Origin: Escherichia phage vB_EcoM_DE16 | Length of the DNA: 64,000 nucleotides | Reading direction: 5' to 3' (one strand) | Sequence record: OP595145.1 | Shown: positions 46,487-63,884 of the stretch, piece by piece | How the letters are laid out: the number at the start of each line of letters is the position of its first letter | How positions within the stretch are numbered: position 1 is the stretch's first letter | Position numbers and translations under genes: made by a program | Notes under the pieces: generated by a model | What the model was told of the DNA's origin: nothing | Databases searched by the model: none | What the model saw: only the letters and a program-made list of their open reading frames with translations

Positions 46487-46959
46487 TGGCAGATTTAACT
46501 ACGATCAAAATTTCTGATCTTACACAAACAACCTCTGTGTCTGATACAGATTTCTTTGTAACAGATCAGGCTGGAATAACAAAGAAAACTTCTTTGAAAG
46601 TGCTGTTGAGTGGTGCAGGGGTAACTAGAAACCGTCTGAATGCACGGGGAACAGTAACTAGCACCTTGGCATTAGATATTAGTTCGGCAGAATATTTTTC
46701 AGCAACTTTATCTTCTGCAACGTGCACAATTAGTTTTACTAATATTCCAGTAGCAACAAATGCAGTTTTAAACTTTACTTTAGCTTTGCGTCAAGGAAGT
46801 GGTGCAAATAAAGTCGTATGGCCTTCTTCTGTAAAATGGAGTTTTGGTCGTTCCCCAGTTTTGAGTTATCGTCAAGGTGCAACAGACACTTTTGAGTTTA
46901 TCAGTTATGATAATGGTGCAACTTGGACAGGTAGCTTAGTTTTAGCAGGAGTTATTTAA
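46486..46959 (+). CDS. small fibre-like structural protein (157 aa)
   Basis: N-terminus MADLTTIKISDLT...TDFFVTDQ shares a motif with the N-terminus of 52006..53946. Confidence 0.4.
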   Translation: MADLTTIKISDLTQTTSVSDTDFFVTDQAGITKKTSLKVLLSGAGVTRNRLNARGTVTSTLALDISSAEYFSATLSSATCTISFTNIPVATNAVLNFTLALRQGSGANKVVWPSSVKWSFGRSPVLSYRQGATDTFEFISYDNGATWTGSLVLAGVI

Positions 46960-49843: not shown

Positions 49844-51997
49844 ATGAAACAAGCTATATTTACTGTCACGCGAGACAAGAGAGTAAATGCGAGTTCATTT
49901 AACTACACGACTGTTGATGGAACAGCAGTCGCTGGTAGAGATTATATTGCAAAATCGGGAACACTTGTGTTCCCTGATGATGCTGATTCTGCTACTATTG
50001 TGGTTGAAGTATTTGAACGACCAAAGAACTCAATAGATCTTAACTTCTCCCTCCAAGTTTCAGGGATTAGTCAAAATAATATGATGGTTGAAACAACCAT
50101 CAATTGTATTATAACTACTATCCAAGAAAATACCACTCCAATAACTTGGACTACAAAAGACGTTAAAATGTTCTCTCCTATGTATTGGACAATAGATTCT
50201 CAAGCAACGGAAAGTTGTTCTATTGTATCTCATGGAGACTCTTTTACTGCAAGATTTGTAAACAGAACAACAGCAGGTTTGGCAGGGGTTATCTGGAGCA
50301 CAGTTGACAAATATGACCATAAAGGTGTTGGGTATTTACCCCACACAGATTTAAGTTCAGAGAAACTTTGGTTTAAAATGGAAATTAGTCAAAACATGCC
50401 AGGTTTTAAAGAAGAACCTTTGGTGCCGACTTTGACTGTAACTCTCCTGGATAAAAGTGTTCATTATGTCAGTTTAGGATTCTATGCTTCAGATATTTCA
50501 GAAGATGGTAAAACAGCCACAATCAAGCTAGATTTTGGTAATATCTTTTCTGGCCCTAATAATGATATTCCTTTGGATATGAGTGCCGTAGACAATATTT
50601 TCTTCTCTTTGATTACAGCAAGGTATGAAGAAATAGAGGAGATTGTACCTATTGACAGTCAAGAGGCTTGGTTTACTTTCACTCTTCTTGAACCTACTTC
50701 TGGTTATAGTATGATGAAAGTCAGCAACCTTGTCCAGCCTGAACATGATATTCGCATGTGCACATCTTATGATGATATGTATAACCTGACTCCAGAGAGA
50801 GTTATTTATAATACATATGCACTAGGTTATCGTGGAATGATTAACCATTACAACGGAATGTCTCACTATTATGAGTTCTCATGGAACGGAACATCTTGGG
50901 CTTTAAATAGATCTGTTTTCCTGAATCCGGCTACAGAAGCTTGGCTTAACAGTTTCCATTCTATAGCTAATGAAAATGGCTACACAATAATGAACTCTTT
51001 GAGTTTTGAGTTGATGAGCACAGTTTGTCCTGTAGAATGGGTTCAACATGATTGGAACGATGCTCTTGCAGCAACAGGTTATAAGCCGCCTAGCTATGTG
51101 TTATCTCCAACAATTGATGAAGGTATGGAATATTTGCAAAATGTTATTAACAAAATAGCATCTATTTCTCAAGCTAACAATATTCCAATCGTTATTCAAA
51201 TTGGTGAACCTTGGTGGTGGTATAATACAGCAAGTAAAATGCCTTGTATATATGATTACACTACCAAACTGGCATTCAATACTGAAACAGGCTTATTTGC
51301 ACAAGATGCAGGAACTATAGATAATTATAAAACAGGAACACCATTTGACGAATACTATGCATTTTTGTCTCGTAAACTAGGGTTAAGAGTTACAAAGTTT
51401 GCAACAGACACCAGAGCAACTTATCCAGGAGCTAAAGTAACATTGCTTCCGTTCTTACCATCAATTATCGGCAACGGTTTGATGGAGAAAGTTAACTTTC
51501 CGTCTGATTACTACATTCCTGAAGCTTTTGATTTTTATTGTTCAGAGTGTTACGACTGGCTTCTGGAAGGTAAAATGATGAAAGCATTTGATGCAATTAC
51601 CATACCACATGAAAAATTAGGTTTTGAATATTCTGATATTCACTATCTTGCAGGTTTTGTTCCAGATGCTACTCTTGCACCTTTGTATGGCTTTGATCCT
51701 GAATCAAACTACCGCACGTATCTTTGGAAAATGATTATAGGTAATATAGTGTTGAACGCCAATAAGTTCAATGGACTTACACAATATATATGGGCCTATC
51801 CTCAAATAATGCACGATTCTATCACGGTAGTTAATTCTCAATCCCAAGTTTTCTATATGGGTAACGTGCCTTTGAACGCTTATTTACAGGATATCACTCT
51901 TAAACAGGTAAATGTTGAGATTGCCACCATAAGTGGAATTACATTAGCCACTAAATCTGGAGAAGATTTAGTAACAACACAAAAATTTTATATATAG
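49844..51997 (+). CDS. large tail structural protein (717 aa)
   Basis: long ORF in baseplate-fibre block. Confidence 0.5.
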   Translation: MKQAIFTVTRDKRVNASSFNYTTVDGTAVAGRDYIAKSGTLVFPDDADSATIVVEVFERPKNSIDLNFSLQVSGISQNNMMVETTINCIITTIQENTTPITWTTKDVKMFSPMYWTIDSQATESCSIVSHGDSFTARFVNRTTAGLAGVIWSTVDKYDHKGVGYLPHTDLSSEKLWFKMEISQNMPGFKEEPLVPTLTVTLLDKSVHYVSLGFYASDISEDGKTATIKLDFGNIFSGPNNDIPLDMSAVDNIFFSLITARYEEIEEIVPIDSQEAWFTFTLLEPTSGYSMMKVSNLVQPEHDIRMCTSYDDMYNLTPERVIYNTYALGYRGMINHYNGMSHYYEFSWNGTSWALNRSVFLNPATEAWLNSFHSIANENGYTIMNSLSFELMSTVCPVEWVQHDWNDALAATGYKPPSYVLSPTIDEGMEYLQNVINKIASISQANNIPIVIQIGEPWWWYNTASKMPCIYDYTTKLAFNTETGLFAQDAGTIDNYKTGTPFDEYYAFLSRKLGLRVTKFATDTRATYPGAKVTLLPFLPSIIGNGLMEKVNFPSDYYIPEAFDFYCSECYDWLLEGKMMKAFDAITIPHEKLGFEYSDIHYLAGFVPDATLAPLYGFDPESNYRTYLWKMIIGNIVLNANKFNGLTQYIWAYPQIMHDSITVVNSQSQVFYMGNVPLNAYLQDITLKQVNVEIATISGITLATKSGEDLVTTQKFYI

Positions 51998-52005
51998 GAG
52001 TAAAA

Positions 52006-53946
52006 ATGTCAACTACAATTACTAATTTACCCGAAACATCAAAAGTTAATGATTCTGATTACCTGGTTTTAGACCAACCTGATAAGACTGTTAAAAGCAC
52101 AGTTTCCAACTTTCTTACTGACACTGGGGTGGTTTTAGCCACCCAGTTGAAAGATACAGATGGAGCAGATTTAATACAATCCTCAAATGGTAATACTGTT
52201 CAGGAAGAGTTGAATAACAATCTTCTTAATGATCGTGAACAGTGGCGTCGTAGTCTTGCTGAGGCTGGCTTAACGCTTGTTGATGGTAGTTTTGAAGACG
52301 GTGCTACAGCAAATAGTAAAACTGATGCCGTTTGGTATAGGACAGGAGGTCAGTGTTATGTGTGGGATGGTGTCGGGGTTAAAAATGTACCTGCTAAATC
52401 AACTCCAACATCAACTGGCGGGGAAGGGGTTGATAAGTGGCTTAATGTTAGTAATGTTACACTTAGGAGTGGGATAGTAGCCTCTATAAATCCAGTAGAT
52501 AATCTAAGCGCACTTAAATCGTCCCTTGCATCAAAGAAGATAACCACATTAACTGAGGCTGTAACCACTACGGATGTAATTATTGTTCCTTCCTACAGTG
52601 AGTTAAGAGGCATTGGTCATAATATAGGAATCATTGCACAACAACCGAAGCCGCAAAAAGTAATATCAAAATCTGGAAATAAAAAATATGATTTTGTTAA
52701 TACAAATAAACCACTTCAGTCGAGAGATGCAATATTAGCTATAGATCCTGCGTGGATTGACGGAGTATACCCCCAACATACAATAATCGATGGGGTATCC
52801 TTACTTGGTGATCCATCCAGTAAAAATGATGTCGGGCTATTTATTTTTCAGGGTGGAAATTTCACCATCAGGAACATGCAGATAGCGAACTGCCTAGACG
52901 GGATTCTTAGCAGTGGCTGCTGGATTAGTCGCTTTGAGAACGTGAGTGCGCTTGGTGGCAGTCTGGCTTTTAATGGTGGCACAAGCCATGTATTAATTGG
53001 GTGCGCTGCCTGGGCTACCGCTGAGAATGACGGAGCATTTTATTTTAATGACGTAACATACAGCAGCATGGTTGGATGCACATCTGACCACTCGGAAGCT
53101 CCAGCTAACTTCTTCAGAGATGGCGTGCAGATGACCATGGTTAACTGCGGAAGCGAGTTCGCTACCTCACCGGGAGGTGGTGTTGGTAGCATGATTGCGT
53201 CAGCAGGTGCGGGCAATAAAATCACGGTACTTGGATATAAAGGGGTTCCAAAGGCTGGGCAGACTGACCCGCTAATTAGTATTTCAGAAAACAGTACGAT
53301 GCACATTATCAATTGGTACAGCAATGAGCCAGACTATCCGAATAGTTTAGACGTCAGTGTAAATGGTGACGGAAGCACTATTATTGTTGAAGATAGTATA
53401 TTCTCTGGAGGCCGAACCCTGCCGGTTGTACAGTTCAGGGGCAACCAACCGAACAGTAAAGTTATTGTTAAGAGCGGCGGTAATGAATATGTATATACCT
53501 CACCTCTGGGGGGTGGTATTGTAAGTTCACCAGAACGTAAGTACAGAGGTACAACGTATACACCGAAGCTACTGGTTAATGGCGCGAATGTTGCCGAGCT
53601 AACATATTCCACTGCTATAGGTAGTGCAGTAAAGAATGGTAATCAACTAACAGTAAACTTTAATTTAGTTATATCAGCCGCTCCTTCATCCCCATCTCAG
53701 GGTACTATTACACTGGATTTACTTTCTACTGAGACGGGGTACGTTCCTGAATATGAATCGTGTGGTGTGCTAGTAGTTTCTAATGGTGTGGGTTTCAGTG
53801 GGGTGGCATGCGTAGTGTCGCCCAATGAGACTATGGTTTATTTAAAAAGCAGTGATGGGGTAAATATGCAACTACAGCATATAAAGGCAGGAACGCAAAT
53901 CAGAGGAGCGGTGACATTTAAAGTAAAAAGATCTGGTTGGTCATGA
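52006..53946 (+). CDS. tail fibre/tailspike protein
   Basis: 646 aa; N-terminal fibre-type motif; WDGVGVKNVPAKSTPTSTGG motif shared with 61860..63884; Gly/Ser/Asn-rich beta-helix-like repeats. Confidence 0.5.
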   Translation: MSTTITNLPETSKVNDSDYLVLDQPDKTVKSTVSNFLTDTGVVLATQLKDTDGADLIQSSNGNTVQEELNNNLLNDREQWRRSLAEAGLTLVDGSFEDGATANSKTDAVWYRTGGQCYVWDGVGVKNVPAKSTPTSTGGEGVDKWLNVSNVTLRSGIVASINPVDNLSALKSSLASKKITTLTEAVTTTDVIIVPSYSELRGIGHNIGIIAQQPKPQKVISKSGNKKYDFVNTNKPLQSRDAILAIDPAWIDGVYPQHTIIDGVSLLGDPSSKNDVGLFIFQGGNFTIRNMQIANCLDGILSSGCWISRFENVSALGGSLAFNGGTSHVLIGCAAWATAENDGAFYFNDVTYSSMVGCTSDHSEAPANFFRDGVQMTMVNCGSEFATSPGGGVGSMIASAGAGNKITVLGYKGVPKAGQTDPLISISENSTMHIINWYSNEPDYPNSLDVSVNGDGSTIIVEDSIFSGGRTLPVVQFRGNQPNSKVIVKSGGNEYVYTSPLGGGIVSSPERKYRGTTYTPKLLVNGANVAELTYSTAIGSAVKNGNQLTVNFNLVISAAPSSPSQGTITLDLLSTETGYVPEYESCGVLVVSNGVGFSGVACVVSPNETMVYLKSSDGVNMQLQHIKAGTQIRGAVTFKVKRSGWS

Positions 53947-54112
53947 TTATATGCTAACAGGATGCTGAAGATATGGGAGTGAGTTTTCCCTTTCTTAATC
54001 TGAACTGTATATGGCATCAGTGGCGTGGATGCCCATGGATGGCACCACGCTAACTGGTGTTAATAATCTTGATTTGACTTTCTACTATTAATAGAAAAAC
54101 AAAGAGGTTTAT

Positions 54113-54421
54113 ATGAACGAAATGTTCTCACAAGGTGGTAAAGGTTCAACCGGAATCTTAACCAATAAACAAGCAGTAGCCCGTCACTTTGGAGTTAAAC
54201 AATCTGAGGTTGTTTACTTCTCAGTTGGTGTGGATTTGGGTGGGTATAAGGTTATCTATGATAAGGAGACGCAAAGGGCGTATTCCCTACCTGCTGATAT
54301 TGCCCCAGGTACTACTGCCATTAGTCTTAGTGCTGCTGTACTTGTGCATTCAGCGGGTTCTGTAGACCTTGGGGAATTAGCTGTATCTTGTGATTTAAAA
54401 AGTAATGAGAACGCACCATGA
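54113..54421 (+). CDS. stand-alone fibre-domain protein (102 aa) homologous to an internal segment of 58745..61798
   Basis: QAVARHFGVKQSEVVYFSVG...YSLPADIAPGTT...SAGSVDLGELAVS aligns with QTIARKYGLLDDEVAYATAG...YTLPPNITGTLT...SGGSVDLSALAVE in the 1017-aa protein. Confidence 0.45.
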   Translation: MNEMFSQGGKGSTGILTNKQAVARHFGVKQSEVVYFSVGVDLGGYKVIYDKETQRAYSLPADIAPGTTAISLSAAVLVHSAGSVDLGELAVSCDLKSNENAP

Positions 54422-54660
54422 GAAAGTTTTTAATCGGAATGTTTTGTACTTATCCAAACAACAAAATCAGTTCTACTAAAGTGTGGAACGCACTGGGAAT
54501 GCTAACCATGACAGGCATGTTTATCTTTTTAGGAATAGAAAAAGAAATTCCTGAATGGATGGGTTGGGCTTTTGTTTTCATGATAACCCCTTCTCGCCTC
54601 ATGAAAAATCTTATTGATTTACGTTGGGGCAGATCACAATCTACCAAAGAGGATGACTAA
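54418..54660 (+). CDS. small two-TM membrane protein (holin-like)
   Basis: 80 aa with two hydrophobic segments and charged C-terminus. Confidence 0.35.
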   Translation: MRKFLIGMFCTYPNNKISSTKVWNALGMLTMTGMFIFLGIEKEIPEWMGWAFVFMITPSRLMKNLIDLRWGRSQSTKEDD

Positions 54661-56147
54661 TGGACGAATATGGTTTGACAGATGCGGGATTTGTAATCCC
54701 GACTTTTGACGATGTTCTAAACAATTATATGACAGCAGTAAAAAACACATTTGGTGCAGATGCAGCCACTTCGGAAGATACTGTGATCGGACAACTGTTT
54801 AGAATAATTGCATACACAGATTACACATTGTGGGAAGGTATGCAAGGTGTTTATAATACTCAAACACTGGATGGTGCAGAAGGTATTTATCTTGACGAAA
54901 TCTTTTCTAAGCGCGGTTTCTATCGAGCAGGGGCAGCAGCAAGTACAGGTTATGCCTATGTTAAGAGTAATAACAAAGCAGCTTGGACTTATGAGTTAGG
55001 CACGGATATTTACTTCAACTCTGATAGTGATATGAACTACTATGTTAGCACACCAACTATGTTGAATGCTAAGATTGCAGCTTATCAAATCTCTCGTGCT
55101 AATGCAACTGCTACAGGTGTTCCAAATATTACTTTTTATGCACAAAGTGCGGTGGATGGAGGACTAAACAGTAAAACACTTGCACCTGGTTCTTCTACAT
55201 TTATAACCGATCTTGAAACTTTTATCAAGGCGAATTTAACAGAAGCTGATCGTAGTCTTGTATTTTCTGATTCAGGTAACTTATCAATTGGTTTTACTTC
55301 TTTAACCAGTGATACTCCAGTGGGGCTGGTAACTCCTATTAAATTTTATGCTAGTGTTCCGGTTGGAACCAAGTGGAGTGAGATTCCGGTAGTTGCAGCA
55401 GAGAAAGGATACAATCCTGTTGGTGTGGAGTCTATTACAGGGATATCTTCTACCTTTACAGGTTATCTTGATAGTGGTAACTTCTATTCATTTTCCCCTG
55501 GTCGAGATGTTGAGACAGACGCAGAATTCCGCTCTCGTTTCAATGACAACGTTGACGAAGCTAACGCAGGGACACGAGCAGCTATTGTGAAAGCTCTGCT
55601 ACTTACAGATGGTGTTACTAAGGTGAAGATTTATGATAACCCTACATTACATGATCAAGAACATGCTCCAGCTATGACTTTCCAGACTATAGTTTATGGT
55701 GGCAGTGCAGAAGAAATTGCAAATGTTATCTATAAAACCAAACCAATCAACACTTTGACACACGGAACAACTAACATAACAGTTACAACAGAAGATGGAG
55801 GACAAGAAATTATCCGCTTCTCTCCTGGTACTTCTGCTATGTATTCCGTAAAACTTGTTTATCAAACTGTCAACGGAACAACTTTAAGTGGAACAGAAAA
55901 ACAAAACATCGTAGAAGCTTTACAAAACCTGCAAGCTTACTTTGAGTTAGGTTCTTCAGTAACGAACGATCAAATCAAAGGTGTTATTTATGCAGCACTT
56001 GCTTTTGGACGCTTGACTTCTCTTCGTGTTTATGTTAAACTTAATACTGAGGATGACAGTAAATATACAGAGAATAATATAGTTCCTGCTTATAATGTTG
56101 TCCCTTCTTTTGACCTTGATAACATTTCTTACGAGTATGGAGTGTAA
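54660..56147 (+). CDS. baseplate wedge/fibre-associated structural protein (495 aa)
   Basis: long ORF between fibre genes; start overlaps previous stop. Confidence 0.4.
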   Translation: MDEYGLTDAGFVIPTFDDVLNNYMTAVKNTFGADAATSEDTVIGQLFRIIAYTDYTLWEGMQGVYNTQTLDGAEGIYLDEIFSKRGFYRAGAAASTGYAYVKSNNKAAWTYELGTDIYFNSDSDMNYYVSTPTMLNAKIAAYQISRANATATGVPNITFYAQSAVDGGLNSKTLAPGSSTFITDLETFIKANLTEADRSLVFSDSGNLSIGFTSLTSDTPVGLVTPIKFYASVPVGTKWSEIPVVAAEKGYNPVGVESITGISSTFTGYLDSGNFYSFSPGRDVETDAEFRSRFNDNVDEANAGTRAAIVKALLLTDGVTKVKIYDNPTLHDQEHAPAMTFQTIVYGGSAEEIANVIYKTKPINTLTHGTTNITVTTEDGGQEIIRFSPGTSAMYSVKLVYQTVNGTTLSGTEKQNIVEALQNLQAYFELGSSVTNDQIKGVIYAALAFGRLTSLRVYVKLNTEDDSKYTENNIVPAYNVVPSFDLDNISYEYGV

Positions 56148-56149
56148 AA

Positions 56150-56779
56150 ATGGCAGTGAGTGTTGACCATGTAACAACTTGGGCCAGTATCAATGAAGAT
56201 GTTAAAAACCTTCTGATTGAAGATTTTAAATCTTCTCCTAACATTGTCAAGCTCCTCTACATCGTATCCAGTGAAAAGCAAAAGATAGATCAGGCAATGA
56301 TCTATCTTGCTAAACACCGCTTGATCTCTACAGCTACAGGCAAATACCTAGATATTCTAGGGGAAGAAATGGGGATCGAACGTAATGGCTCTGATGATGA
56401 AGAGTATAGAACAATATTAAAAATCAGGGCTTACCGCGTAGCCTCATCGGGGACTCGTGGTGACATAATTGATATCTTCGCCCGTTTCACAGGAACAGAG
56501 CGTGAAACGCTTAATACTTACGTAGGTTTGAATAAAACCTTTGATGTGTTTTTCTACAACCTGTGTCTTCAATCTGATCAAGCTTTAGAGCAGTTGCTAA
56601 GTGTTTTCCCTATTATTAGTAGCTACCGTCTTGGAGCAAAAGCAGGATCAGCTTTTGGTTTTAGTTCTTATTATGCTACCAAACCGCCTCATGGTATTGG
56701 TGGTTTAGGTTCCCTGTACATGGAATCTACTGGGGATGAAACAGGACGCATGTGTACGCTTCTCAAGCAAATAGATTAA
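56150..56779 (+). CDS. baseplate/tail fibre connector protein (209 aa)
   Basis: position. Confidence 0.4.
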   Translation: MAVSVDHVTTWASINEDVKNLLIEDFKSSPNIVKLLYIVSSEKQKIDQAMIYLAKHRLISTATGKYLDILGEEMGIERNGSDDEEYRTILKIRAYRVASSGTRGDIIDIFARFTGTERETLNTYVGLNKTFDVFFYNLCLQSDQALEQLLSVFPIISSYRLGAKAGSAFGFSSYYATKPPHGIGGLGSLYMESTGDETGRMCTLLKQID

Positions 56780-56788
56780 GGAGTTTAA

Positions 56789-57850
56789 ATGGCGAAGCCA
56801 ATATATTATCCTGACTGGGCTACACAAACTGTAACGCTCCCAGGAACTTTAAACACAAACAAAATTAGACCTAAAGAAACCATCCGCACAGTTGGTATGG
56901 ATTATGGTCAAATCATGACTTGCGAAGAAATGAACTGGATTCTTAATAATATCGGTTTATGGATTCGCTATTTGGTGGATGATTTTCTTCCAACTTTACC
57001 TAATACCTACTTGCCTTTAGTGGGAACTAAGATTACAATGGCAGGTGATGCTACTGGTGAGGCCACTTGGAACGGTAACAAAGAAGTTACTTTATCTATC
57101 CAAGTTCAAGATAACAGTCATAATCACTTGTCAGCAAACATTACAGATGCTACTAGTTCAACAGTAACACCAAACGTGTTGGTAAAACGTGATGCGGGTG
57201 GTGCTATTTATGGTGGTGATGTTTATGTTAACGGTACTTCCACAACAGATCCTGCAACACTGTTCTTCAAAAACTTTGCAGGACAAACAAATGGTGAGAT
57301 TTCTGCCGAGTATCAAAGCGGAGGTCAGCTTTACATCTATCGTAGAAATCCTAACACAGGTAGTGTATTGGCAGGTGTTCGTTTATATGATGCAGGTTAT
57401 GTTCTAATAGATAATCCAAGATCGAACAGTGGACAAGATACTTCTAACGGAAATGCTTTAGTTCGTTTAGATTATCTGAACTCTCGTTTGACTTCCCTTC
57501 AGAACACATTGCAGACGAATATTAACACTGTTCAAAACAACTTGAATAATGTTAACAACAACCTCTCTTCTCGTATAAACAATGTAGAAAGTAATCATCA
57601 AAGTCAGATTACAAATAACTACAACTATGCTAACGGAACCTTTGTAAGAGATATTCGTTATACTAGCCAAGGTGTGTATTATCCGCCAGGGAACGAGGTT
57701 TCTTGGACTTATATCTGTTCTTCTGGTTATGTTCTTTCTGGTATTATCGTACAGGAAACAGGACGTAGCTCTGCGGATAACATCGGTGGGGTTTACTTCA
57801 AACGCCTCCAGCGCAACGTTAACGGAAACTGGTACGATATTGGAGGCTAA
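56789..57850 (+). CDS. tail fibre protein (353 aa)
   Basis: N/Q/T-rich, coiled NNLNNVNNNLSSRINNVESN segment typical of fibre shafts. Confidence 0.45.
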   Translation: MAKPIYYPDWATQTVTLPGTLNTNKIRPKETIRTVGMDYGQIMTCEEMNWILNNIGLWIRYLVDDFLPTLPNTYLPLVGTKITMAGDATGEATWNGNKEVTLSIQVQDNSHNHLSANITDATSSTVTPNVLVKRDAGGAIYGGDVYVNGTSTTDPATLFFKNFAGQTNGEISAEYQSGGQLYIYRRNPNTGSVLAGVRLYDAGYVLIDNPRSNSGQDTSNGNALVRLDYLNSRLTSLQNTLQTNINTVQNNLNNVNNNLSSRINNVESNHQSQITNNYNYANGTFVRDIRYTSQGVYYPPGNEVSWTYICSSGYVLSGIIVQETGRSSADNIGGVYFKRLQRNVNGNWYDIGG

Positions 57851-58396
57851 ATGATATTTACAAACTTTAAAAAATATATTCCTGAAGACCCTGAACTAAA
57901 AGAATTGGTAGAAGCAGAGAACATTCTTTTTCTTCGTTGCGATCAAGGTTACGACTGGTATGATTTACGTAGCACAGAATTCAATAACGATAAAATGAAA
58001 GTCGTTTTTGATGATCAAAATCGTATTGTGTTTTGGAATACTGATCCTACACTACTTTGCCCTGAAGATCTTTCTATAGCACAAGTAGACTTTAATATAG
58101 ATACTTTTGAGGATATTAGGAACAAGGTTCTGGATTTAGAAACCTTAACTCTTAAGGATAAAGAGTATTCCCGTGAAGAGTTGATGACACAAGCTAGTGC
58201 AAAAATTCGCTCTTTACAAGAAACAGCGGTAGCACTTATAACACCTTTACAGTATGCTAAAGATTTAGAAATGGCTACTGAAGACGAATTAGCTTATCTT
58301 AAAAATCTTCAAGTTTATGTAGTTAAACTAAATCGTGTTCCGCTTCAAAAAGACTATCCTTACGCTATAGATTGGCCTACATTACCGACAGAATAA
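57851..58396 (+). CDS. tail fibre assembly protein (putative)
   Basis: 181 aa directly after fibre gene with overlapping start. Confidence 0.4.
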   Translation: MIFTNFKKYIPEDPELKELVEAENILFLRCDQGYDWYDLRSTEFNNDKMKVVFDDQNRIVFWNTDPTLLCPEDLSIAQVDFNIDTFEDIRNKVLDLETLTLKDKEYSREELMTQASAKIRSLQETAVALITPLQYAKDLEMATEDELAYLKNLQVYVVKLNRVPLQKDYPYAIDWPTLPTE

Positions 58397-58405
58397 GGGA
58401 TCACT

Positions 58406-58741
58406 ATGGAATTTCAAGAAGCATGGGGACTTGCAAAGGATGCAATAATCCCTTTAATCGGAGTCATCTGGTTCTTTTTCAAACAAAAAATGGATAAATT
58501 CGGCTCTGATCTTGAGGAAATGGAGGAGAAAAGTCGAGAGCTAGAGAAGAAGTTGGTCTTTGTTGAATCAACTTATGCAACTAAAGCCGAACTTACCCAG
58601 ATGCTAAATCAAATTAACTCTACATTAATGGCAAATAATAACACCCTTGAGCAAAAAATTGAAAAGATTATGGACCTCAAGAATGCGACTATCCAAATGA
58701 TGCTAGATGACATAGTTAAACGTACACAGAATAAGGGGTAA
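58406..58741 (+). CDS. hypothetical protein with N-terminal TM and coiled coil (111 aa)
   Basis: hydrophobic N-terminus then E/K-rich helix. Confidence 0.4.
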   Translation: MEFQEAWGLAKDAIIPLIGVIWFFFKQKMDKFGSDLEEMEEKSRELEKKLVFVESTYATKAELTQMLNQINSTLMANNNTLEQKIEKIMDLKNATIQMMLDDIVKRTQNKG

Positions 58742-58744
58742 TTA

Positions 58745-61700
58745 ATGGCAACATTCCCAACATATCCAGCAACGTCTCTCGAACAGGGCGTAGACCTGGT
58801 TATTTTCTCATCTAACCAACTCCATGATGTTATTAATGGAAGTGCTACAGAGAGTATTGAAACAGAATCAGGGTTGATACCAACCCTGAGAAAAGCCCTT
58901 GTTGACAACTTTTTCTTTAAAAGCCCATTGGATTGGGCGCAAGGCACAAACGAAACAGTTTTTAACCAACTTCGTTATTTCCAGAATGGAGTATTGAGCG
59001 GTTATTACTATGCCCCTAACGCTACATTGGTTAACCCAATCCCTATGCAAGGGACTCCAGTAGGAGATAACAACTGGGTATTGTGGGGACTGAAAACAGA
59101 ACAATTAGCAACAGAAGTCACCCCGTGGGTATACTCTGGTGCAACGGGTTATGAAACAGTAATTAGTCCTCCTTACATCTTTGATAGTGCTATTGTTACG
59201 ATCAATGGTGTTATTCAGGTTCTGGGGGAAGCTTTCCGTATAGAAGATAGTAAGATCATCTTATCTGAACCTTTGGGACACGATCCTGCAACAGGACTAC
59301 CAAACAAGCTTTTTGCTTATATTGGTAAAATCGTAGCTTCAGCAGATACAGATCCTAATCTAGAGAACCGTCTTGTTAGTTTAGAAACAAAAACGGAAGA
59401 ACTAACAGAAAGCATGGATAAAGTCCCTCTGCAAACTATTGCTCGTAAATATGGTTTGTTAGATGATGAGGTGGCTTACGCAACAGCAGGTCAATCGTTA
59501 ACAGGGATTAAAGCTCTGTATGATCCAGTAGCACAGTCTTCCTACACATTACCTCCTAACATCACAGGAACTTTAACATCCTTGTCTGTTTCTGGAGTAA
59601 TGACTTATTCTGGGGGGTCTGTAGATCTTTCTGCACTAGCTGTTGAACGTGGACAGTTTGTTCATTTGCCTACAAGCTTTGGTAATAACGTAACTCTGAC
59701 AGCTAAAAATCAGACGATTGGACGTGGTGCTGGTCGTTATCGTTGGGCTGGAAGTTTACCAAAAAGTATTTTGGCTTCTGATACATTGGAGACAAGCGGT
59801 GGATTAGGTCCAAATGCATGGGTTCTGACCAATACAGAAGGACTGTTAACCCCTCGTGGTGGAACATACAACGATTTATTCGATGTTGTCTACTTGTCAG
59901 AATTTGCTAACAACACAACAACATATACCACACCAGAAGCAGCTTTCCAAGCGGCACTGTTAGCAGCAAAAGCTTCGAAAAGCAAGATTCTCGATGCTTA
60001 CGGTTGCGATATGACTTTCACGACAAGCTCTTTTGATATTCAAGGTATCACTTTGCGTGGGGGTGTGTTCCGTGGTCAACGCGACTATCGTGTGCAAAAT
60101 GCTACAGTAGAAGGCACAACTTTCCGTAACTCTCGTGTTATGTATTGGGGTGGTGCTGTGCGCATGTTCGATTGTTTGTGGGACGGTGCTCCTCGCGCAG
60201 GTCAAGTTGGTAGCTTGGTATTCCAAGGCAACCCAATATCAGGTACTTTTGAAATTGATAATTGTACTTTTAAAAACGGGTTATACGGCATCCTTCAACA
60301 AGGAACAGGGGAACCAGTAACACGTGGTGTCTTCCGTAACCTTACCTTCATGGACATGCAAGGTGATGCAATAGAACTGAACGTCATCAATAAACATTAT
60401 GACGATGGTTGTGTGATTGAGAATATTTACCTGTCTAATATCGATGGAACTAATGCTCCTATTCCTCTGTCCAACTGGGGTATCGGTATTGGTGTAGCTG
60501 GTAAAGGACCATATGGTTACGGAATCCCTGATGATCAATATTGTAAGAATATTACAATTCGTAACGTTTTTGCAAAACGTTGCCGTCAGATTGTCCACGT
60601 AGAAGTTGGTCGTAATATCTCTATCGAAAACATTCATGGCGATCCAGACCAGACTGTATCTGTTGGGACAGGTTTGGCAACTGGCGCAGTTGTAATGTAT
60701 GGAAGTAAAGATTTTACGATTGATGGTGTTTATGGAGAGCCTAAAACAGACGGTAGCACACTTGCAAGTAATATCCGTATGATTTATTTGGAGTGGGGAA
60801 CTAACGCAGTTCTGGACGAAGAGGGTAATCCGGTAGTTCCGGCACAGGGCAGACCTTCAAATCCATGCTTTAACTATTCTGTTCGTAACATTCACACCAA
60901 AACTGGGCGTGTTTTTGCGGGAGTTTCCGCTGGGCCAGGTTATGAAAACAGAGTTAGCTTTGAAAATATTCGTTGCGCTGCATTGCAGTTGTTCGGTATA
61001 GCTTCTTGGCTTTCAATGTCTAACATCACCTGTAATATCTTCGATTGTGTTGGTCAACCTGAATCTGGTCCAGGGACATTTTATGATGGATTCTTCCGTA
61101 GAGAAAAATCTGTTCTTGAAATGGTTAACGTAAACTGTTACCCAGATGGCAAGACGATGGTTACTGGTCGTCCACAGTGGAGCCGTTGCCGTTACTCGGA
61201 TATTCATCGTGTCAACTGTAATGTTGAAGCTAATATGTATACCAATATCGCAGGTGGTATTGGAGCTATTGTAGGGACAACGGGCAAAGTTTATTACTTA
61301 GAGCCTAATCCTAGTCGAAACATTGATGGAATGCATTTCCCAACAGGGAAAGAGTTTGACAAAGGGGATATGATAGTCAAGGCGGATAATACGTTCTTCC
61401 TTGTAACAACAAGTGGGGCATATATTCCAGATATCCCAGCTTTCGGTATTCGAGCTACACAGGCAGGAGATACCTTCCTGACACAGAACTTGACTCCTAA
61501 CGGGACAGCAACAAATGCTTCTTGGTTGTATCATTACCCTCTGTCAGCAGGGACACGTATCCGTATTCCTGGTGCTGGTGTAGGTGGAGCAGATTTGGAC
61601 ACAGTTATTACTCGTGCACCTTATCAAGATAATGATACGTGGACTAACCCAGTTAAAATAGACATTGCAGATCCAATTGTAACGCCTACAAGTGCTGGAG

Positions 61701-61798
61701 TTAGAATTAAAACCATACCTAATGATTCCAGTAATGTTTCTGTAGGTAATACTGCGGTTATTCGCCCAACGCCAGTAGTAGATGTGCCAACAACCTAA
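58745..61798 (+). CDS. tailspike protein with right-handed beta-helix (putative depolymerase)
   Basis: 1017 aa; repeated NxxxxN/IxNIxG-type beta-helix rungs (FRNLTFMDMQGDAIELNVINKHYDDGCVIENIYLSNIDG...ITIRNVFAKRC). Confidence 0.5.
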   Translation: MATFPTYPATSLEQGVDLVIFSSNQLHDVINGSATESIETESGLIPTLRKALVDNFFFKSPLDWAQGTNETVFNQLRYFQNGVLSGYYYAPNATLVNPIPMQGTPVGDNNWVLWGLKTEQLATEVTPWVYSGATGYETVISPPYIFDSAIVTINGVIQVLGEAFRIEDSKIILSEPLGHDPATGLPNKLFAYIGKIVASADTDPNLENRLVSLETKTEELTESMDKVPLQTIARKYGLLDDEVAYATAGQSLTGIKALYDPVAQSSYTLPPNITGTLTSLSVSGVMTYSGGSVDLSALAVERGQFVHLPTSFGNNVTLTAKNQTIGRGAGRYRWAGSLPKSILASDTLETSGGLGPNAWVLTNTEGLLTPRGGTYNDLFDVVYLSEFANNTTTYTTPEAAFQAALLAAKASKSKILDAYGCDMTFTTSSFDIQGITLRGGVFRGQRDYRVQNATVEGTTFRNSRVMYWGGAVRMFDCLWDGAPRAGQVGSLVFQGNPISGTFEIDNCTFKNGLYGILQQGTGEPVTRGVFRNLTFMDMQGDAIELNVINKHYDDGCVIENIYLSNIDGTNAPIPLSNWGIGIGVAGKGPYGYGIPDDQYCKNITIRNVFAKRCRQIVHVEVGRNISIENIHGDPDQTVSVGTGLATGAVVMYGSKDFTIDGVYGEPKTDGSTLASNIRMIYLEWGTNAVLDEEGNPVVPAQGRPSNPCFNYSVRNIHTKTGRVFAGVSAGPGYENRVSFENIRCAALQLFGIASWLSMSNITCNIFDCVGQPESGPGTFYDGFFRREKSVLEMVNVNCYPDGKTMVTGRPQWSRCRYSDIHRVNCNVEANMYTNIAGGIGAIVGTTGKVYYLEPNPSRNIDGMHFPTGKEFDKGDMIVKADNTFFLVTTSGAYIPDIPAFGIRATQAGDTFLTQNLTPNGTATNASWLYHYPLSAGTRIRIPGAGVGGADLDTVITRAPYQDNDTWTNPVKIDIADPIVTPTSAGVRIKTIPNDSSNVSVGNTAVIRPTPVVDVPTT

Positions 61799-61804
61799 TG
61801 GAAT

Positions 61805-61828
61805 AGAGGGGGATTCCCCCTCTTCTTC
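61805..61828 (+). terminator. stem-loop terminator after tailspike gene
   Basis: AGAGGGGG-ATT-CCCCCTCT then TCTTCC. Confidence 0.5.
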
Positions 61829-61859
61829 CAATAGAATGGTCTAATGATAGGAGAGATAA

Positions 61860-63884
61860 ATGAATTTAACAAGACCTAATAGTGCGATAGCCGATCTGGT
61901 AGAAGCTACTTATCGAAAACGTCGCAGCTTTGAGGCAGGTTTTACATTACGTAATTCCCGTGAAGTTTTGCTGTTAGCAGCAGAAGGGAATTATTACCAA
62001 TGGAAAGGAACTTTTCCTAAAGTTGTTCCAGCAAACTCTACGCCAGCCACCACAGGTGGTATTTCTTCCCTTGCATGGCAAAGTGTTGGGACCGCTGATG
62101 ATATAGCAATTATCAATGCCAAGTTTACAGCAATGCAGCAACAGATTGATGATCTGTCGGAAACAATACCTGAAGCTGGTAAATCGGCTTATCAGATCGC
62201 ACTTGATAATGGTTTTGTTGGAACAGAAGCACAATGGCTTGCTTCTTTGAAAGGGGATACTGGTGCTCAACTTAATATTAAAGGATCATTAGCAAGCACT
62301 AGTGAACTACCATCCACAGGTAACGTTGCAGGGGATGGTTATATCGTAGGTGATGTAATCTACGCTTGGGATGGTTCTGTTTGGAAACTTATTTCTTCTC
62401 TTGGGCCAGAAGGTAAATCAGCTTACGAGGTATGGTTGGCAGATGGTAATACAGGATCTGTTTATGATTTTCTTACCTCTATAAAAGGTGATAAAGGTGA
62501 TGTTGGTCCTACAGGGCCACAGGGAGCACCTGGTGTTAACGCCAACGGTTTTGATTATCGTGGGGATTTGCCTTCTACAAGTAACTTACCACAACCTAAC
62601 TCTGAAAACGTAAGCCAAGCTTATTCTATCAATGGTAATCTTTATGTCTCTAATGGGACAGCTTGGGTCAACATGGGTAATATTGTTGGTCCTCAAGGTC
62701 CACAAGGTGAGGCAGGTAAAGACGGTCTTGATGGAACAGATGGAGATGAAGGGAAATCTGCATATCAAAGTTGGCTGGATGCTGGTAATGAAGGGACAGA
62801 AGTAGATTTTATTGCCTCACTTAAAGGTCCAAAAGGAGACAAGGGTGATCAAGGAGAGCGAGGTCCACAAGGTGAACTAGGTCCACAAGGACCAGTGGGT
62901 GCAACAGGATCAGGTTTAGAGATTATCGGGGTTCTGAACAGTGAAGCTGAACTTCCTCCTACTGGAGAAGTAGGTGATGCATATAAAATTAATAATGATT
63001 TGTATGTTTGGATTCAAGATGCTACGGAATGGATGAATGTTGGCAGTCTTGGAGGAACATCAATTACAGCTAAAGGTCATGTTCCGAACAGTGAAGCTCT
63101 CCCTGTTTATAATAACTATGGTGATGCCTATTTAACTGAAGACACTAGTAATCTTTACATCTATACCTACGATCAAGACACCAATTCCGCATCTTTTGTT
63201 GACATGGGAAGTATTAAAGGCGACAAAGGTGAAAAAGGGGATAAAGGAGATAAGGGTGATCCTGGAACAAACGGAACCAACGGTACTGATGGGACCAACG
63301 GTAAGGACGGCGCACAGTGGTTTGTAGCAACAACTAATCCAGTTGCAGGAGACGGTGTTATCAATGATTACGCTTTCAACACTACCACTGGAGCAGTGTT
63401 TAAGAAAACAGATTCTTCTACATGGACACTTATAGGAACTCTTCCTAGTATACCAGAAGCACCTCAAGACGGCTTGACGTATGGTCGTTCTGATGGGAAC
63501 TGGATCGAAATATCAGGATCAGATCCTACAGAAGCTATAACACCAACTAAAGTTACAGCAGGTTTCATGGAACTTGAAACAACTACTGCCAACTCTGGAG
63601 CATCTTGGACTCCTTCTGGAACTTCCAATATGTATGTTGTTACAGTAACTGACGCTCTGACAGTTGGAGCATGGCCTGGTGTCACTGGCTCTACAAAGCC
63701 TAAAGCGTTTTCAGCAATGATTTATTTGATTCAAGATACAACGGGACACACGGTTACACTAGATGCGTCTTATGGAGCACTGAATGATACAGAAATAGCA
63801 ACTACTGCTAACGCAGTAACAATTTTGCAATTAACGTATCCTGGTGTGGGTGATATCGTGGACATGGTTGTTGTAACACGATAA
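61860..63884 (+). CDS. tail fibre protein with collagen-like Gly-X-Y repeats
   Basis: 674 aa; several Gly-X-Y runs (GDKGDVGPTGPQGAPG; GPQGPQGEAGKDGLDGTDGDEG; GPKGDKGDQGERGPQGELGPQGPVGATG; GDKGEKGDKGDKGDPGTNGTNGTDGTNGKDG); VPANSTPATTGG fibre motif. Confidence 0.6.
   Translation: MNLTRPNSAIADLVEATYRKRRSFEAGFTLRNSREVLLLAAEGNYYQWKGTFPKVVPANSTPATTGGISSLAWQSVGTADDIAIINAKFTAMQQQIDDLSETIPEAGKSAYQIALDNGFVGTEAQWLASLKGDTGAQLNIKGSLASTSELPSTGNVAGDGYIVGDVIYAWDGSVWKLISSLGPEGKSAYEVWLADGNTGSVYDFLTSIKGDKGDVGPTGPQGAPGVNANGFDYRGDLPSTSNLPQPNSENVSQAYSINGNLYVSNGTAWVNMGNIVGPQGPQGEAGKDGLDGTDGDEGKSAYQSWLDAGNEGTEVDFIASLKGPKGDKGDQGERGPQGELGPQGPVGATGSGLEIIGVLNSEAELPPTGEVGDAYKINNDLYVWIQDATEWMNVGSLGGTSITAKGHVPNSEALPVYNNYGDAYLTEDTSNLYIYTYDQDTNSASFVDMGSIKGDKGEKGDKGDKGDPGTNGTNGTDGTNGKDGAQWFVATTNPVAGDGVINDYAFNTTTGAVFKKTDSSTWTLIGTLPSIPEAPQDGLTYGRSDGNWIEISGSDPTEAITPTKVTAGFMELETTTANSGASWTPSGTSNMYVVTVTDALTVGAWPGVTGSTKPKAFSAMIYLIQDTTGHTVTLDASYGALNDTEIATTANAVTILQLTYPGVGDIVDMVVVTR

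What the first reader, a model, noticed from the sequence alone, without database searches (positions are those of the whole stretch)
54113..61798. Domain sharing among receptor-binding proteins: a 102-aa ORF duplicates an internal segment of the 1017-aa tailspike
The product of 54113..54421 aligns over about 70 residues with an internal region (around residues 230-300) of the beta-helix tailspike at 58745..61798, at roughly 35-40 percent identity by eye, with shared blocks ARxxG, EVxY, YxLP and SVDL-x-x-LAV. Separately, two fibre proteins share a VPA-STP-TGG motif (52006 and 61860 genes), and two share an N-terminal motif (46486 and 52006 genes). The region therefore encodes at least four or five distinct fibre/spike proteins built from shuffled modules, one with collagen-like repeats. 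This suggests a multi-receptor tail apparatus and recent domain exchange.
Basis: seen in the sequence. Interest (0 to 1): 0.45.

Follow-up and report, generated by a model that had tools for sequence, protein, structure and literature searches.

The report
Orphan tailspike head-domain gene remnant
The 102-residue ORF is the leftover first domain of a tailspike gene picked up from an unrelated phage family; it marks a recombination hot spot in a phi92/phAPEC8-type phage that carries many spikes, and is probably not a working receptor-binding protein.

Summary
The reported similarity is real: 31 of 72 residues are identical (43%, E=1e-15) between the 102-aa ORF and residues 230-300 of the 1017-aa spike. 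It is not a duplication within this genome.

The window is a Phapecoctavirus, a relative of phAPEC8 and phi92. Both sequences carry the known D1 "head" subdomain of CBA120-TSP1 / G7C-gp63.1-type tailspikes.

- **Origin.** ORF residues 1-92 are about 97% identical in protein, and about 86% in DNA, to TSP1 of Kuttervirus phages, including 25 nt holding the ribosome-binding site. Homology stops at codon 94, at the D1/D2 boundary.
- **Tail.** At least the last 18 nt of the ORF are the ribosome-binding spacer of the next gene, read through to an ATGA overlap.
- **Distribution.** Roughly a third of related phage records carry the ORF. Others have 49-aa or 32-aa fragments, a frameshift, or nothing (phi92, phAPEC8).
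- **Mosaicism.** All copies share a near-identical 3' block of about 120 nt. Their 5' halves come from different donor types.
- **Selection.** Changes among the near-identical copies are 8 nonsynonymous to 0 synonymous. Against the functional homologue the ratio is 3 to 31.

Best reading: a young, drifting tailspike gene remnant at the right edge of a swappable spike cassette. The other shared motifs are real and correspond to known modules. Interest is modest.

The parts
54088..54112 (+). 25 nt upstream of the ORF holding the ribosome-binding site (TAGAAAAACAAAGAGGTT...). It is shared with the region upstream of Kuttervirus TSP1 and G7C gp63.1.
   Evidence: DNA similarity to Kuttervirus and G7C starts at query positions 189-193 of 53900-54700, about 21-25 nt before the ATG. 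The upstream sequences are printed.
54113..54394 (+). Codons 1-94 of the 102-aa ORF: a TSP1/gp63.1-type D1 head subdomain, including the disordered N-terminal residues and the metal-ligand His25. It is cut two residues short of the D1/D2 boundary.
   Evidence: phmmer against PDB: 4oj5 (CBA120 TSP1) residues 1-94 E=3e-49; 4qnl (G7C gp63.1) E=1e-43; 9d84 (phage B2 gp48) E=3e-43. D1 is residues 13-96 in TSP1 and TSP3 (PMC6517402). PHROG hits cover only the D1 part of 17 spike families that are 548-1167 positions long.
54395..54421 (+). Codons 95-102 (DLKSNENAP) plus the TGA stop. At least the last 18 nt are the native ribosome-binding spacer of the downstream gene, read in the D1 frame. The stop overlaps the next ATG (ATGA).
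   Evidence: The D1-less phage 3A1_SA_NWU has ...AAGTAAGGAGAACGCACC ATGAGAAAG at the same place, preceded by a GC-rich hairpin followed by a T-run that I read as terminator-like. The tail occurs only in Stephanstirmvirinae copies, not in the Kuttervirus and Schitoviridae loci fetched here.
54298..54417 (+). 3' block of the ORF. It is 93-100% identical in DNA in 10 of the 12 compared copies and 80-97% in anhysbys and L048, across both genera.
   Evidence: Identity profile over 12 loci in 30-nt windows. To the left the boundary of similarity varies from 54088 to about 54298. To the right the membrane gene drops to 63-90%.
54418..54660 (+). 80-aa membrane protein gene (phi92 gp144 homologue). Its start codon overlaps the ORF's stop.
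   Evidence: phrog_1322 membrane protein, E=2e-26. Synteny with phi92 gp144.
52006..53946 (+). 646-aa tailspike at the phi92 gp143 position. It is the variable cassette to the left of the remnant: N-terminal anchor motif (aa 4-42), D2 (aa 93-149), then a beta-helix body with no close relative in the phage collection.
   Evidence: Pfam PF18668 and a weak Beta_helix hit. Only residues 1-~160 are conserved among relatives at 77-86%; the best match to the body is 42% identity. The body is the gap in the 83% coverage.
53975..53990 (+). Terminator-like hairpin followed by a T-run, after the 646-aa spike gene.
   Evidence: Consensus scan only.
58745..59344 (+). N-terminal ~200 aa of the 1017-aa spike: an anchor region with a TSP4-N/TSP2-like (T4 gp10 XD-like) fold. 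It is a possible docking platform.
59432..59644 (+). Internal D1 subdomain (aa 230-300) of the 1017-aa spike. This is the segment the ORF resembles.
   Evidence: phmmer against 4qnl, 5w6f, 4oj5 and 5w6h at E=1e-26 to 1e-30, covering D1+D2.
59648..59827 (+). D2 subdomain (aa 302-361, PF18668) of the 1017-aa spike.
60020..61744 (+). Colanidase-type beta-helix body (aa 426-1000) of the 1017-aa spike.
   Evidence: phmmer against 6e0v (phi92 gp150), E=1e-79. phrog_6117 colanic acid degradation.
61893..62090 (+). D2 subdomain (aa 12-77) at the very N-terminus of the 674-aa collagen-like fibre (phi92 gp151 homologue).
   Evidence: PF18668, E=1e-19.
46507..46623 (+). N-terminal anchor-type motif (aa 8-46) of the 157-aa fibre protein, shared with aa 4-42 of the 646-aa spike.
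   Evidence: Smith-Waterman 69 against shuffles 29 +/- 5.3, 0 of 2000.

Best explanation
The 102-aa ORF is a truncated tailspike gene. It holds the start region and first head subdomain (D1) of a CBA120-TSP1 / G7C-gp63.1-type spike.

How it arose and behaves:
- A Stephanstirmvirinae phage captured this gene start from an Ackermannviridae- or Schitoviridae-like donor. In those donors a D1-led spike gene always follows another spike gene.
- At codon 94 it was joined illegitimately to the ribosome-binding spacer of the membrane-protein gene, so the frame runs on for 8 codons to an ATGA overlap.
- It lacks D2, the neck and the enzymatic body, so it cannot be a receptor-binding spike.
- Since truncation it has drifted without detectable protein-level constraint and is being lost piecemeal in relatives.
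- It remains homologous to the conserved heads of foreign spikes and sits at the right edge of the hypervariable gp143-position spike cassette. It therefore keeps taking part in homologous recombination: crossovers fall inside it, replacing its 5' half and leaving a constant 3' block.

The similarity to residues 230-300 of the 1017-aa colanidase spike exists because that spike carries its own, anciently diverged D1-D2 head between an XD-like anchor region and the beta-helix, like CBA120 TSP2 and TSP4.

Shown here: homology and its boundaries, the origin of the tail, the decay series, the mosaicism and the substitution pattern. Inferred: the direction and single origin of the capture, and the lack of function.
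For: - Domain identity and truncation point. PDB and PHROG matches cover only D1. Homology to full-length heyday TSP1 and G7C gp63.1 runs from about 25 nt upstream of the ATG to ...LAVSR at codon 94.
- Foreign origin rather than local duplication. 97% aa / 86% nt identity to Kuttervirus TSP1, against 43% aa to the paralogue in this genome.
- Tail is native spacer. A D1-less relative has the same 18 nt with AAGGAG before the same ATGAGAAAG start. The tail is absent from the Kuttervirus and Schitoviridae loci fetched.
- Same-locus decay series. Intact 101-102 aa in the window, Ro121c4YLVW, PD211, nieznany, PaulScherrer and anhysbys. 49-aa 3' fragments in alia and ECGD1. A 32-aa internal-deletion form in PHB05. 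A frameshift in SF1-1. A partial copy in ESCO9. Absent in phi92, phAPEC8 and 3A1_SA_NWU. About 45 records carry the 3' block joined to the membrane gene; roughly 90 carry only the membrane gene.
- Mosaic 5' halves with a constant 3' block. One variant is 88-94% identical in DNA to Kuttervirus TSP3, including 95 nt upstream.
- Substitutions. Window against functional heyday TSP1 D1: 31 synonymous-only and 3 amino-acid-changing codons. Among the near-identical stand-alone copies: 0 synonymous and 8 nonsynonymous. Fisher p=1.4e-6.
- Donor gene order. TSP4-TSP3-TSP2-TSP1 in Kuttervirus and gp66-gp63.1 in G7C.
- The remnant occurs with both the 1017-aa and the 804-aa colanidase forms, and the 1017-aa form occurs without it. 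There is no co-dependence.
Against: - The ORF keeps a strong ribosome-binding site and an open frame of constant length in many genomes of two genera, and is probably translated.
- A possible docking platform (XD-like fold) exists in the N-terminus of the 1017-aa spike, so a structural role as a small cap cannot be excluded.
- The 8:0 count is small, is compatible with positive selection as well as drift, and clusters near the junction.
- The decayed forms in alia, ECGD1 and PHB05 still keep a short ORF ending at the ATGA. This hints that translation running into the membrane-gene start may matter.
- I found no Stephanstirmvirinae genome with a full-length D1-led spike at this locus, so the capture event itself is unobserved.
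- The survey of relatives used sampled rows, not every genome.
Confidence: 0.75

Rival explanations
1. The 102-aa protein is a working stand-alone D1 trimer. It docks, as TSP1 D1 docks on TSP4 XD3, onto the XD-like N-terminal region of the 1017-aa colanidase spike or another baseplate protein, and serves as a cap or small adaptor in the virion.
For: - D1 of TSP1 is the element that binds TSP4 XD3, and gp63.1 needs gp66 XD3 (PMC8825819).
- The ORF has an intact ribosome-binding site and the metal-ligand His25 (PMC6517402).
- It is intact in about a third of relatives.
Against: - It is absent from phi92, phAPEC8 and many others that have the same anchor region.
- Fragmentary, frameshifted and internally deleted versions exist.
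- Variation among near-identical copies is nonsynonymous only, and the metal-ligand position 25 differs among stand-alone copies (H/R/K/N).
- Trimerisation of the TSP1 head was shown only for D1-D2-neck with Zn (PMC8825819), not for D1 alone.
Confidence: 0.12
2. The ORF matters only as an upstream reading frame. Ribosomes finishing it at the ATGA overlap re-initiate on the membrane-protein gene, whose own Shine-Dalgarno is weakened in most D1-bearing alleles (AATGAG instead of AAGGAG).
For: - The ATGA overlap is kept in all intact copies and in the 49-aa (alia, ECGD1) and 32-aa (PHB05) forms.
- The D1-less 3A1_SA_NWU and the L048 allele have AAGGAG; most others have AATGAG.
Against: - The SF1-1 upstream ORF ends about 94 nt before the ATG and ESCO9 has none annotated, so coupling is not obligatory.
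- This explains retention of an open frame but not its origin. It is compatible with the remnant explanation rather than a replacement for it.
Confidence: 0.08
3. One reading: the ORF is a recent duplication within this genome of the internal segment of the 1017-aa tailspike, or the reverse.
For: Significant similarity between the two.
Against: - Only 43% identity between them, against about 97% to Kuttervirus TSP1.
- The ORF includes N-terminal residues 1-19 and an upstream ribosome-binding region that match foreign spike genes, not the 1017-aa gene.
- A nucleotide search with the ORF region listed no second place at the colanidase gene in relatives.
Confidence: 0.02
4. Split gene: the ORF supplies the missing D1 head for a D1-less spike encoded elsewhere, such as the 674-aa fibre that starts directly with D2. 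The two products would assemble non-covalently.
For: The 674-aa fibre begins with D2 at residue 12, roughly where the ORF's homology to TSP1 ends.
Against: - phi92 and phAPEC8 have the same D1-less gp151-type fibre without the ORF.
- The register does not match neatly: TSP1 residue 102 aligns with fibre residue 22.
- The two genes are 7.4 kb apart.
Confidence: 0.02

Closest known systems
D1 head subdomain of CBA120 TSP1 (ORF210, PDB 4OJ5) and other Kuttervirus TSP1/TSP3 spikes
   Same: Residues 1-94 align end to end with TSP1 residues 1-94 (E=3e-49). The disordered N-terminal residues and the Zn-ligand histidine are present. There is about 86% DNA identity, including the ribosome-binding region (PMC6517402, PMC8825819).
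   Different: TSP1 continues with D2, a helical neck, a beta-helix and D4 (776 aa). The ORF stops at the D1/D2 boundary. It sits in a Stephanstirmvirinae myovirus next to baseplate genes, not in the TSP4-3-2-1 array.
N-terminal domain of phage G7C gp63.1 (PDB 4QNL) and phage B2 gp48 (PDB 9D84), Schitoviridae
   Same: The same D1 domain, at 86% aa and about 81% nt identity to gp63.1. It shares the upstream sequence TAGAAAAACAAAGAGGTTTAT.
   Different: Those are full spikes that dock on gp66 (XD3) or on the gp49 adaptor (PMC8825819, PMC11654681). Here only the docking-domain part remains.
CBA120 TSP2 and TSP4 architecture (XD domains, then D1-D2 head, then body)
   Same: The 1017-aa spike has the same order: an anchor / XD-like region, then D1, D2 and a beta-helix.
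   Different: Its anchor belongs to the PF26208 (phiTE gp241-like) family and its body is a phi92 gp150-type colanidase. No partner has been shown to dock on it.
phi92 multivalent adsorption apparatus (gp140-gp151)
   Same: Gene-for-gene synteny with phi92 gp137-gp151. It has the same multi-fibre design (PMC13450770, PMC8594841).
   Different: phi92 lacks the ORF, its gp150 (804 aa) lacks the D1-D2 head, and its gp143 is an endosialidase rather than the 646-aa spike found here.
Modular horizontal exchange of tailspike receptor-binding domains at conserved N-terminal modules
   Same: Conserved head or anchor sequences act as crossover sites while bodies are swapped across genera (PMC10408124, PMC8432352).
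   Different: Here the conserved module that recombines is a truncated, apparently functionless gene fragment rather than the anchor of a working spike.

Membership tests
TSP1/gp63.1-type tailspike head subdomain D1 | Sequence homology across the whole D1 subdomain (TSP1 residues 13-96) | tested here: met
   phmmer E=3e-49 to 4oj5 residues 1-94. 17 PHROG spike families match through their D1 segment only.
TSP1/gp63.1-type tailspike head subdomain D1 | Metal-binding residue in the N-terminal helix (His in TSP1, Asn in TSP3) | tested here: met
   ARHFG with His25 in the window copy. The position varies (H/R/K/N) among other stand-alone copies (PMC6517402).
Functional tailspike / receptor-binding protein | D2 subdomain, helical neck and a C-terminal receptor-binding or enzymatic body | tested here: not met
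   The ORF ends 8 codons after the D1 homology. No Pfam domain is found. The matched spike profiles are 548-1167 positions long.
Branched spike complex of the CBA120/G7C type (D1 docking on an XD3 domain) | A partner protein with T4 gp10-like XD2/XD3 domains encoded in the same genome | tested here: inconclusive
Branched spike complex of the CBA120/G7C type (D1 docking on an XD3 domain) | Physical binding of the D1-bearing protein to the XD domain | not testable with these tools
   This needs multimer modelling, pull-down or ultracentrifugation.
Gene remnant / pseudogene fragment | Truncated relative to all full-length homologues, at a junction with unrelated sequence | tested here: met
   Homology ends at codon 94. 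At least the last 18 nt of the tail are the native spacer of the next gene.
Gene remnant / pseudogene fragment | Patchy presence and progressive decay among close relatives | tested here: met
   Intact, 49-aa, 32-aa, frameshifted, partial and absent states occur at the same locus. The split is about 45 against about 90 records.
Gene remnant / pseudogene fragment | Relaxed selection on the protein after truncation | tested here: met
   0 synonymous to 8 nonsynonymous among near-identical stand-alone copies, against 31 to 3 versus functional TSP1 (Fisher p=1.4e-6). The sample is small.
phi92-like (Stephanstirmvirinae) multi-fibre tail locus | Synteny hub-spike-gp139...gp151 and DNA identity to Phapecoctavirus genomes | tested here: met
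   97-99% DNA identity to Phapecoctavirus records outside the variable spike body. The gene order matches phi92.

The most novel reading that the evidence does not exclude
The stand-alone D1 protein is kept as a decoy. It is nearly identical to the docking head of Kuttervirus TSP1 and G7C-like gp63.1. In mixed infections it would occupy the XD3 docking sites on the competitor's TSP4 or gp66, so rival virions assemble without one spike. Alternatively it caps an XD-like site on its own colanidase spike. This would be a truncated structural domain reused as an inter-phage interference or assembly-control factor.
Probability: 0.06. Interest if true: 0.65.

Novelty: new member of a known kind. Interest (0 to 1): 0.28.

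Why it matters
It corrects an appealing but wrong reading (an extra receptor-binding protein made by internal duplication) and stops the ORF being counted as a spike. Public records name it 'tail protein' or 'tailspike protein'.

It also gives a clear natural example of how spike cassettes move. A head module shared by three unrelated phage groups (Ackermannviridae, Schitoviridae, Stephanstirmvirinae) survives as a fragment, and crossovers fall inside it repeatedly. This marks the practical right-hand boundary of the swappable spike cassette in phAPEC8/phi92-type therapeutic phage candidates, which is useful when engineering their host range.

None of this changes what is known about how tailspikes work.

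Tried and rejected
- IMG/VR scan with the ORF returned only one intact Stephanstirmvirinae locus and one fragment; the rest were Kuttervirus or N4-like. Relatives therefore had to be fetched one at a time.
- The large protein search returned almost only short proteins. It was useful for the stand-alone copies but could not give the length distribution of all homologues.
- Pfam found nothing in the ORF. My Pfam copy also missed PF26208 and PF27800, which the precomputed tables list for the 1017-aa spike.
- I looked for a Stephanstirmvirinae genome with a full-length D1-led spike at this locus. The two ~150-kb candidates, LHE287 and fGh-Ecl02, turned out to have Ackermannviridae-type spike loci. 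None was found.
- I looked for the DLKSNENAP tail or its DNA in the Kuttervirus and Schitoviridae loci fetched. It is absent.
- I looked for a donor carrying the spike body plus the D1 start as one contiguous block. In L048 only about 95 nt upstream plus D1 match Kuttervirus, not the body. In anhysbys nothing matches outside the subfamily. The body of the window's own spike has no close relative.
- Frameshift fusion to the membrane protein is rejected. T_TTA_AAA in the tail looks slippery, but the -1 frame hits TAA and TGA at once (sequence).
- The split-gene idea with the D1-less 674-aa fibre is rejected; see the rival explanations.
- The Schwarzer 2012 phi92 paper is not held in the library.
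- No sigma-70-like promoter of note lies upstream of the ORF.


Full report
**What the window is.** The region 52000-62000 is 97-99% identical in DNA to Phapecoctavirus genomes (the phAPEC8 group, subfamily Stephanstirmvirinae). The exception is one block, the body of the spike gene at 52006. Gene order matches phi92 gp137-gp151:
- hub 44114 and central spike 45124;
- a gp139 homologue at 45860;
- a 157-aa fibre protein at 46486;
- a 958-aa tail protein at 46959;
- a 717-aa Calx-beta / NCTSP protein at 49844;
- a 646-aa spike at 52006, the phi92 gp143 position;
- the 102-aa ORF at 54113;
- an 80-aa membrane protein at 54418;
- wedge proteins at 54660 and 56150;
- a short fibre at 56789, its chaperone at 57851 and a lipoprotein at 58406;
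- a 1017-aa colanidase spike at 58745;
- a 674-aa collagen-like fibre at 61860.

The multi-fibre apparatus of this group is already described (PMC13450770, PMC8594841).

**Check of the observation.** The ORF product aligns with residues 230-300 of the 1017-aa spike at 31/72 identities (43%), E=1e-15. The Smith-Waterman score is 143 against 27 +/- 5 for shuffles.
- The VPA-STP-TGG motif is Pfam PF18668 (Tail_spike_N) and occurs in three proteins.
- The N-terminal motif shared by the 157-aa and 646-aa proteins is significant: 69 against 29 +/- 5.3, 0 of 2000.
- The collagen repeats are confirmed.

**What the shared segment is.** Against solved structures, ORF residues 1-94 match residues 1-94 of CBA120 TSP1 (4oj5, E=3e-49). 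They also match G7C gp63.1 (4qnl, 1e-43), phage B2 gp48 (9d84, 3e-43) and CBA120 TSP3 (5w6f, 4e-32). Weaker matches fall on internal segments of TSP4 and TSP2. In TSP1 and TSP3 this is head subdomain D1 (residues 13-96). It is followed by D2 (97-154), a helical neck and the enzymatic beta-helix (PMC6517402). D1 of TSP1 is the part that docks on the XD3 domain of TSP4, and gp63.1 needs XD3 of gp66 (PMC8825819).

The large spike is therefore built like TSP2 and TSP4: an anchor / XD-like region, a D1-D2 head, then the body. phi92 gp150 (804 aa) lacks the D1-D2 head. The alignment jumps from residue 201 to 426, and the 804-aa forms carry PF26208 and PF27800 but not PF18668.

**The ORF is not a copy of that internal segment.** Its residues 1-92 are 96.8% identical to TSP1 of Kuttervirus heyday, 90-94% to many other Kuttervirus TSP1s, and 86% to G7C gp63.1. 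DNA identity is about 86% and about 81% respectively. It starts 21-25 nt upstream of the ATG, in a shared ribosome-binding region (TAGAAAAACAAAGAGGTT), and ends at window position ~54393, which is codon 94. Full-length spikes continue ...LAVSR-EEYVTLPGSF (the D1/D2 linker). The ORF continues ...LAVS(C/R)-DLKSNENAP-stop. Seventeen PHROG spike families match the ORF, each only through a D1 segment of about 90 positions in profiles 548-1167 positions long.

**Origin of the tail.** The stop overlaps the start of the membrane-protein gene (ATGA). A relative without the ORF, 3A1_SA_NWU, has a terminator-like hairpin at the same place, then ...AAGTAAGGAGAACGCACC ATGAGAAAG. That is the same 18 nt that encode the end of the tail here (AAGTAATGAGAACGCACC). 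At least the end of the tail is therefore the native Shine-Dalgarno spacer read in the D1 frame. The tail is found only in Stephanstirmvirinae copies. A -1 shift at T_TTA_AAA would hit TAA TGA at once, so no fusion with the membrane protein is possible (sequence).

**Distribution and decay.** At this one locus I found the following states.
- Intact ORFs of 101-102 aa in the window, Ro121c4YLVW, PD211, nieznany and anhysbys (Phapecoctavirus-type flanks), and in PaulScherrer/Bas60 (Justusliebigvirus).
- 49-aa 3' fragments in alia and ECGD1.
- A 32-aa form in PHB05, in which D1 codons 1-23 are joined directly to the tail.
- A frameshifted copy in SF1-1.
- A partial copy in ESCO9, which has also lost nearly all of the upstream spike.
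- Nothing in phi92, phAPEC8 and 3A1_SA_NWU.

A search with the 3' block plus the membrane gene gave 45 records covering both. By the sampled ranking, roughly 90 Stephanstirmvirinae records hold only the membrane gene. The ORF co-occurs with both colanidase forms, and the 1017-aa form occurs without it.

**Mosaicism.** I aligned 24 short homologues from metagenomes and genomes and profiled DNA identity in 30-nt steps over 12 loci.
- Window 54298-54417 is 93-100% identical in 10 of the 12 copies, and 80-97% in anhysbys and L048. This holds even where the adjacent membrane gene is only 63-90% identical.
- The left boundary of similarity varies: 54088 in Ro121c4YLVW, nieznany, PD211 and SF1-1; about 54178 in anhysbys; about 54238 in PaulScherrer; about 54270-54298 in L049, L050, alia, ECGD1 and ESCO9.
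- The 5' halves are of several kinds: TSP1/gp63.1-type, an MNKMFTQPTGPVAKQ type, a TSP3 type (P0022), another type (P0029), and in P0034 an unrelated coiled-coil N-terminus.
- The TSP3-type copy (L048) is 88-94% identical in DNA to Kuttervirus TSP3 over its D1 and 95 nt upstream, but not over the upstream spike body.
- In all contexts the neighbours are the same, and the upstream gp143-position spike differs (646, 659, 744, 762 and 771 aa and others).
- Only the first ~155 residues of that spike (anchor motif plus D2) are conserved among relatives.

In donors, a D1-led spike gene always follows another spike gene: TSP4-TSP3-TSP2-TSP1 in Kuttervirus and gp66-gp63.1 in G7C.

The simplest reading is as follows. 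The fragment lies at the right edge of a swappable spike cassette. Crossovers with foreign or sister D1 sequences fall inside it. They can never replace the last ~100 nt, because homology to any donor ends at codon 94. The low divergence of the 3' block across two genera suggests one fairly recent founding event followed by lateral spread. That step is inference.

**Selection.** Between the window copy and the functional TSP1 D1 of heyday there are 31 codons with synonymous-only changes and 3 with amino-acid changes. Against gp63.1 the counts are 33 and 13. Among the near-identical stand-alone copies, leaving out the two divergent alleles and the fragment edge, all 8 variable codons (67, 77, 85, 90, 91, 92, 93, 102) are nonsynonymous and none is synonymous. 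Fisher p=1.4e-6 against the TSP1 comparison. Eight of eight is expected about 10% of the time under neutrality and about 1e-5 at dN/dS=0.1. The metal-ligand position 25 also differs among stand-alone copies (H/R/K/N). The numbers are small, but they point to loss of protein-level constraint after truncation.

**Mechanism, with confidence.** About 0.75: a young, drifting 5' remnant of a TSP1/gp63.1-type spike gene that still recombines. It is probably translated, because the ribosome-binding site is kept, but it is dispensable. It may incidentally deliver ribosomes to the membrane-gene start. The three decayed forms that keep a short ORF ending at the ATGA, and the weaker AATGAG spacer in most D1-bearing alleles, hint at this. 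SF1-1 and ESCO9 show it is not required.

A structural role as a cap on the XD-like region of the colanidase spike is possible (about 0.12). Its absence from many relatives and its decay in others argue against it. Local duplication and split-gene readings are rejected.

**Comparison with what is known.** The D1/D2 head, its sharing between Kuttervirus and Gamaleyavirus, the docking on XD domains, and cross-genus exchange of spike bodies are all published (PMC8825819, PMC6517402, PMC10408124, PMC8432352, PMC11654681). Public records already label the ORF 'tail protein' or 'tailspike protein'. I found no paper that describes it as a truncated head domain or maps the recombination inside it. That is a limited literature check.

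**Verdict.** This is an ordinary kind of object, a gene remnant in a spike-exchange hot spot, documented here in unusual detail. Interest is modest.

Noticed in passing
window 52480-53946 (residues ~160-646 of the 646-aa spike): The receptor-binding body of the gp143-position spike has no close relative in the 50,697-record phage collection. The best match is 42% identity to PaulScherrer, then 24-30% to siphophage fibres. It is the only part of 52000-62000 not covered by near-identical Phapecoctavirus genomes. Its specificity is unknown.
   Followed up: partly
window 59350-60020 (residues ~202-425 of the 1017-aa spike); compare L043:11864-14278 (phi92 gp150) and L049:10576 onwards: The colanidase spike comes in two forms. 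The 1017-aa form has a coiled-coil plus D1-D2 head between the anchor and the beta-helix. The 804-aa form (phi92, PaulScherrer, L049) lacks it. This is a clean example of a head module inserted or deleted in an otherwise orthologous spike.
   Followed up: partly
window 54418-54507: The first ~90 nt of the membrane-protein gene are themselves mosaic. The window, SF1-1, L048 and L050 share one allele, while other Phapecoctavirus copies are only 63-87% identical there and then 100% from 54508 on. phi92 and phAPEC8 have yet another 5' end (MVKEKNGF..., with its own ribosome-binding site).
   Followed up: partly
L047:2627-3136 (ESCO9); L044:2516-2948 (nieznany); L045:2751-2879 (anhysbys); L052:2638-3040 (PHB05): ESCO9 (host as written in the record: E. 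coli DH5a) retains only an 82-aa N-terminal stub of the gp143-position spike. Several relatives carry extra small ORFs of 42-90 aa between that spike and the D1 remnant. These may be further cassette debris.
   Followed up: no
window 58769-59086 and 63531-63881: PHROG family 4549 (869-position fibre profile) matches residues 9-114 of the 1017-aa spike through its middle, and residues 558-674 of the 674-aa fibre through its C-terminus. This is another sign of module sharing between the two neighbouring genes.
   Followed up: no
window 49844-51997: The 717-aa product combines a Calx-beta domain with the N-terminal and TIM-barrel domains of 'non-contractile tail sheath protein' families (PF23844, PF23845), inside a contractile-tailed phage. 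It is the phi92 gp142 homologue, and its place in the virion is unresolved in the phi92 structure paper.
   Followed up: no
window ~24000: GC skew changes sign from about -0.18 to +0.13 near 24 kb. I take this as a switch of coding strand between an upstream block and the structural module; the ORFs there were not examined.
   Followed up: no
window 54397-54403: T_TTA_AAA in the ORF's tail fits the X_XXY_YYZ slippery pattern. A -1 shift meets TAA TGA immediately, so it is almost certainly fortuitous.
   Followed up: yes
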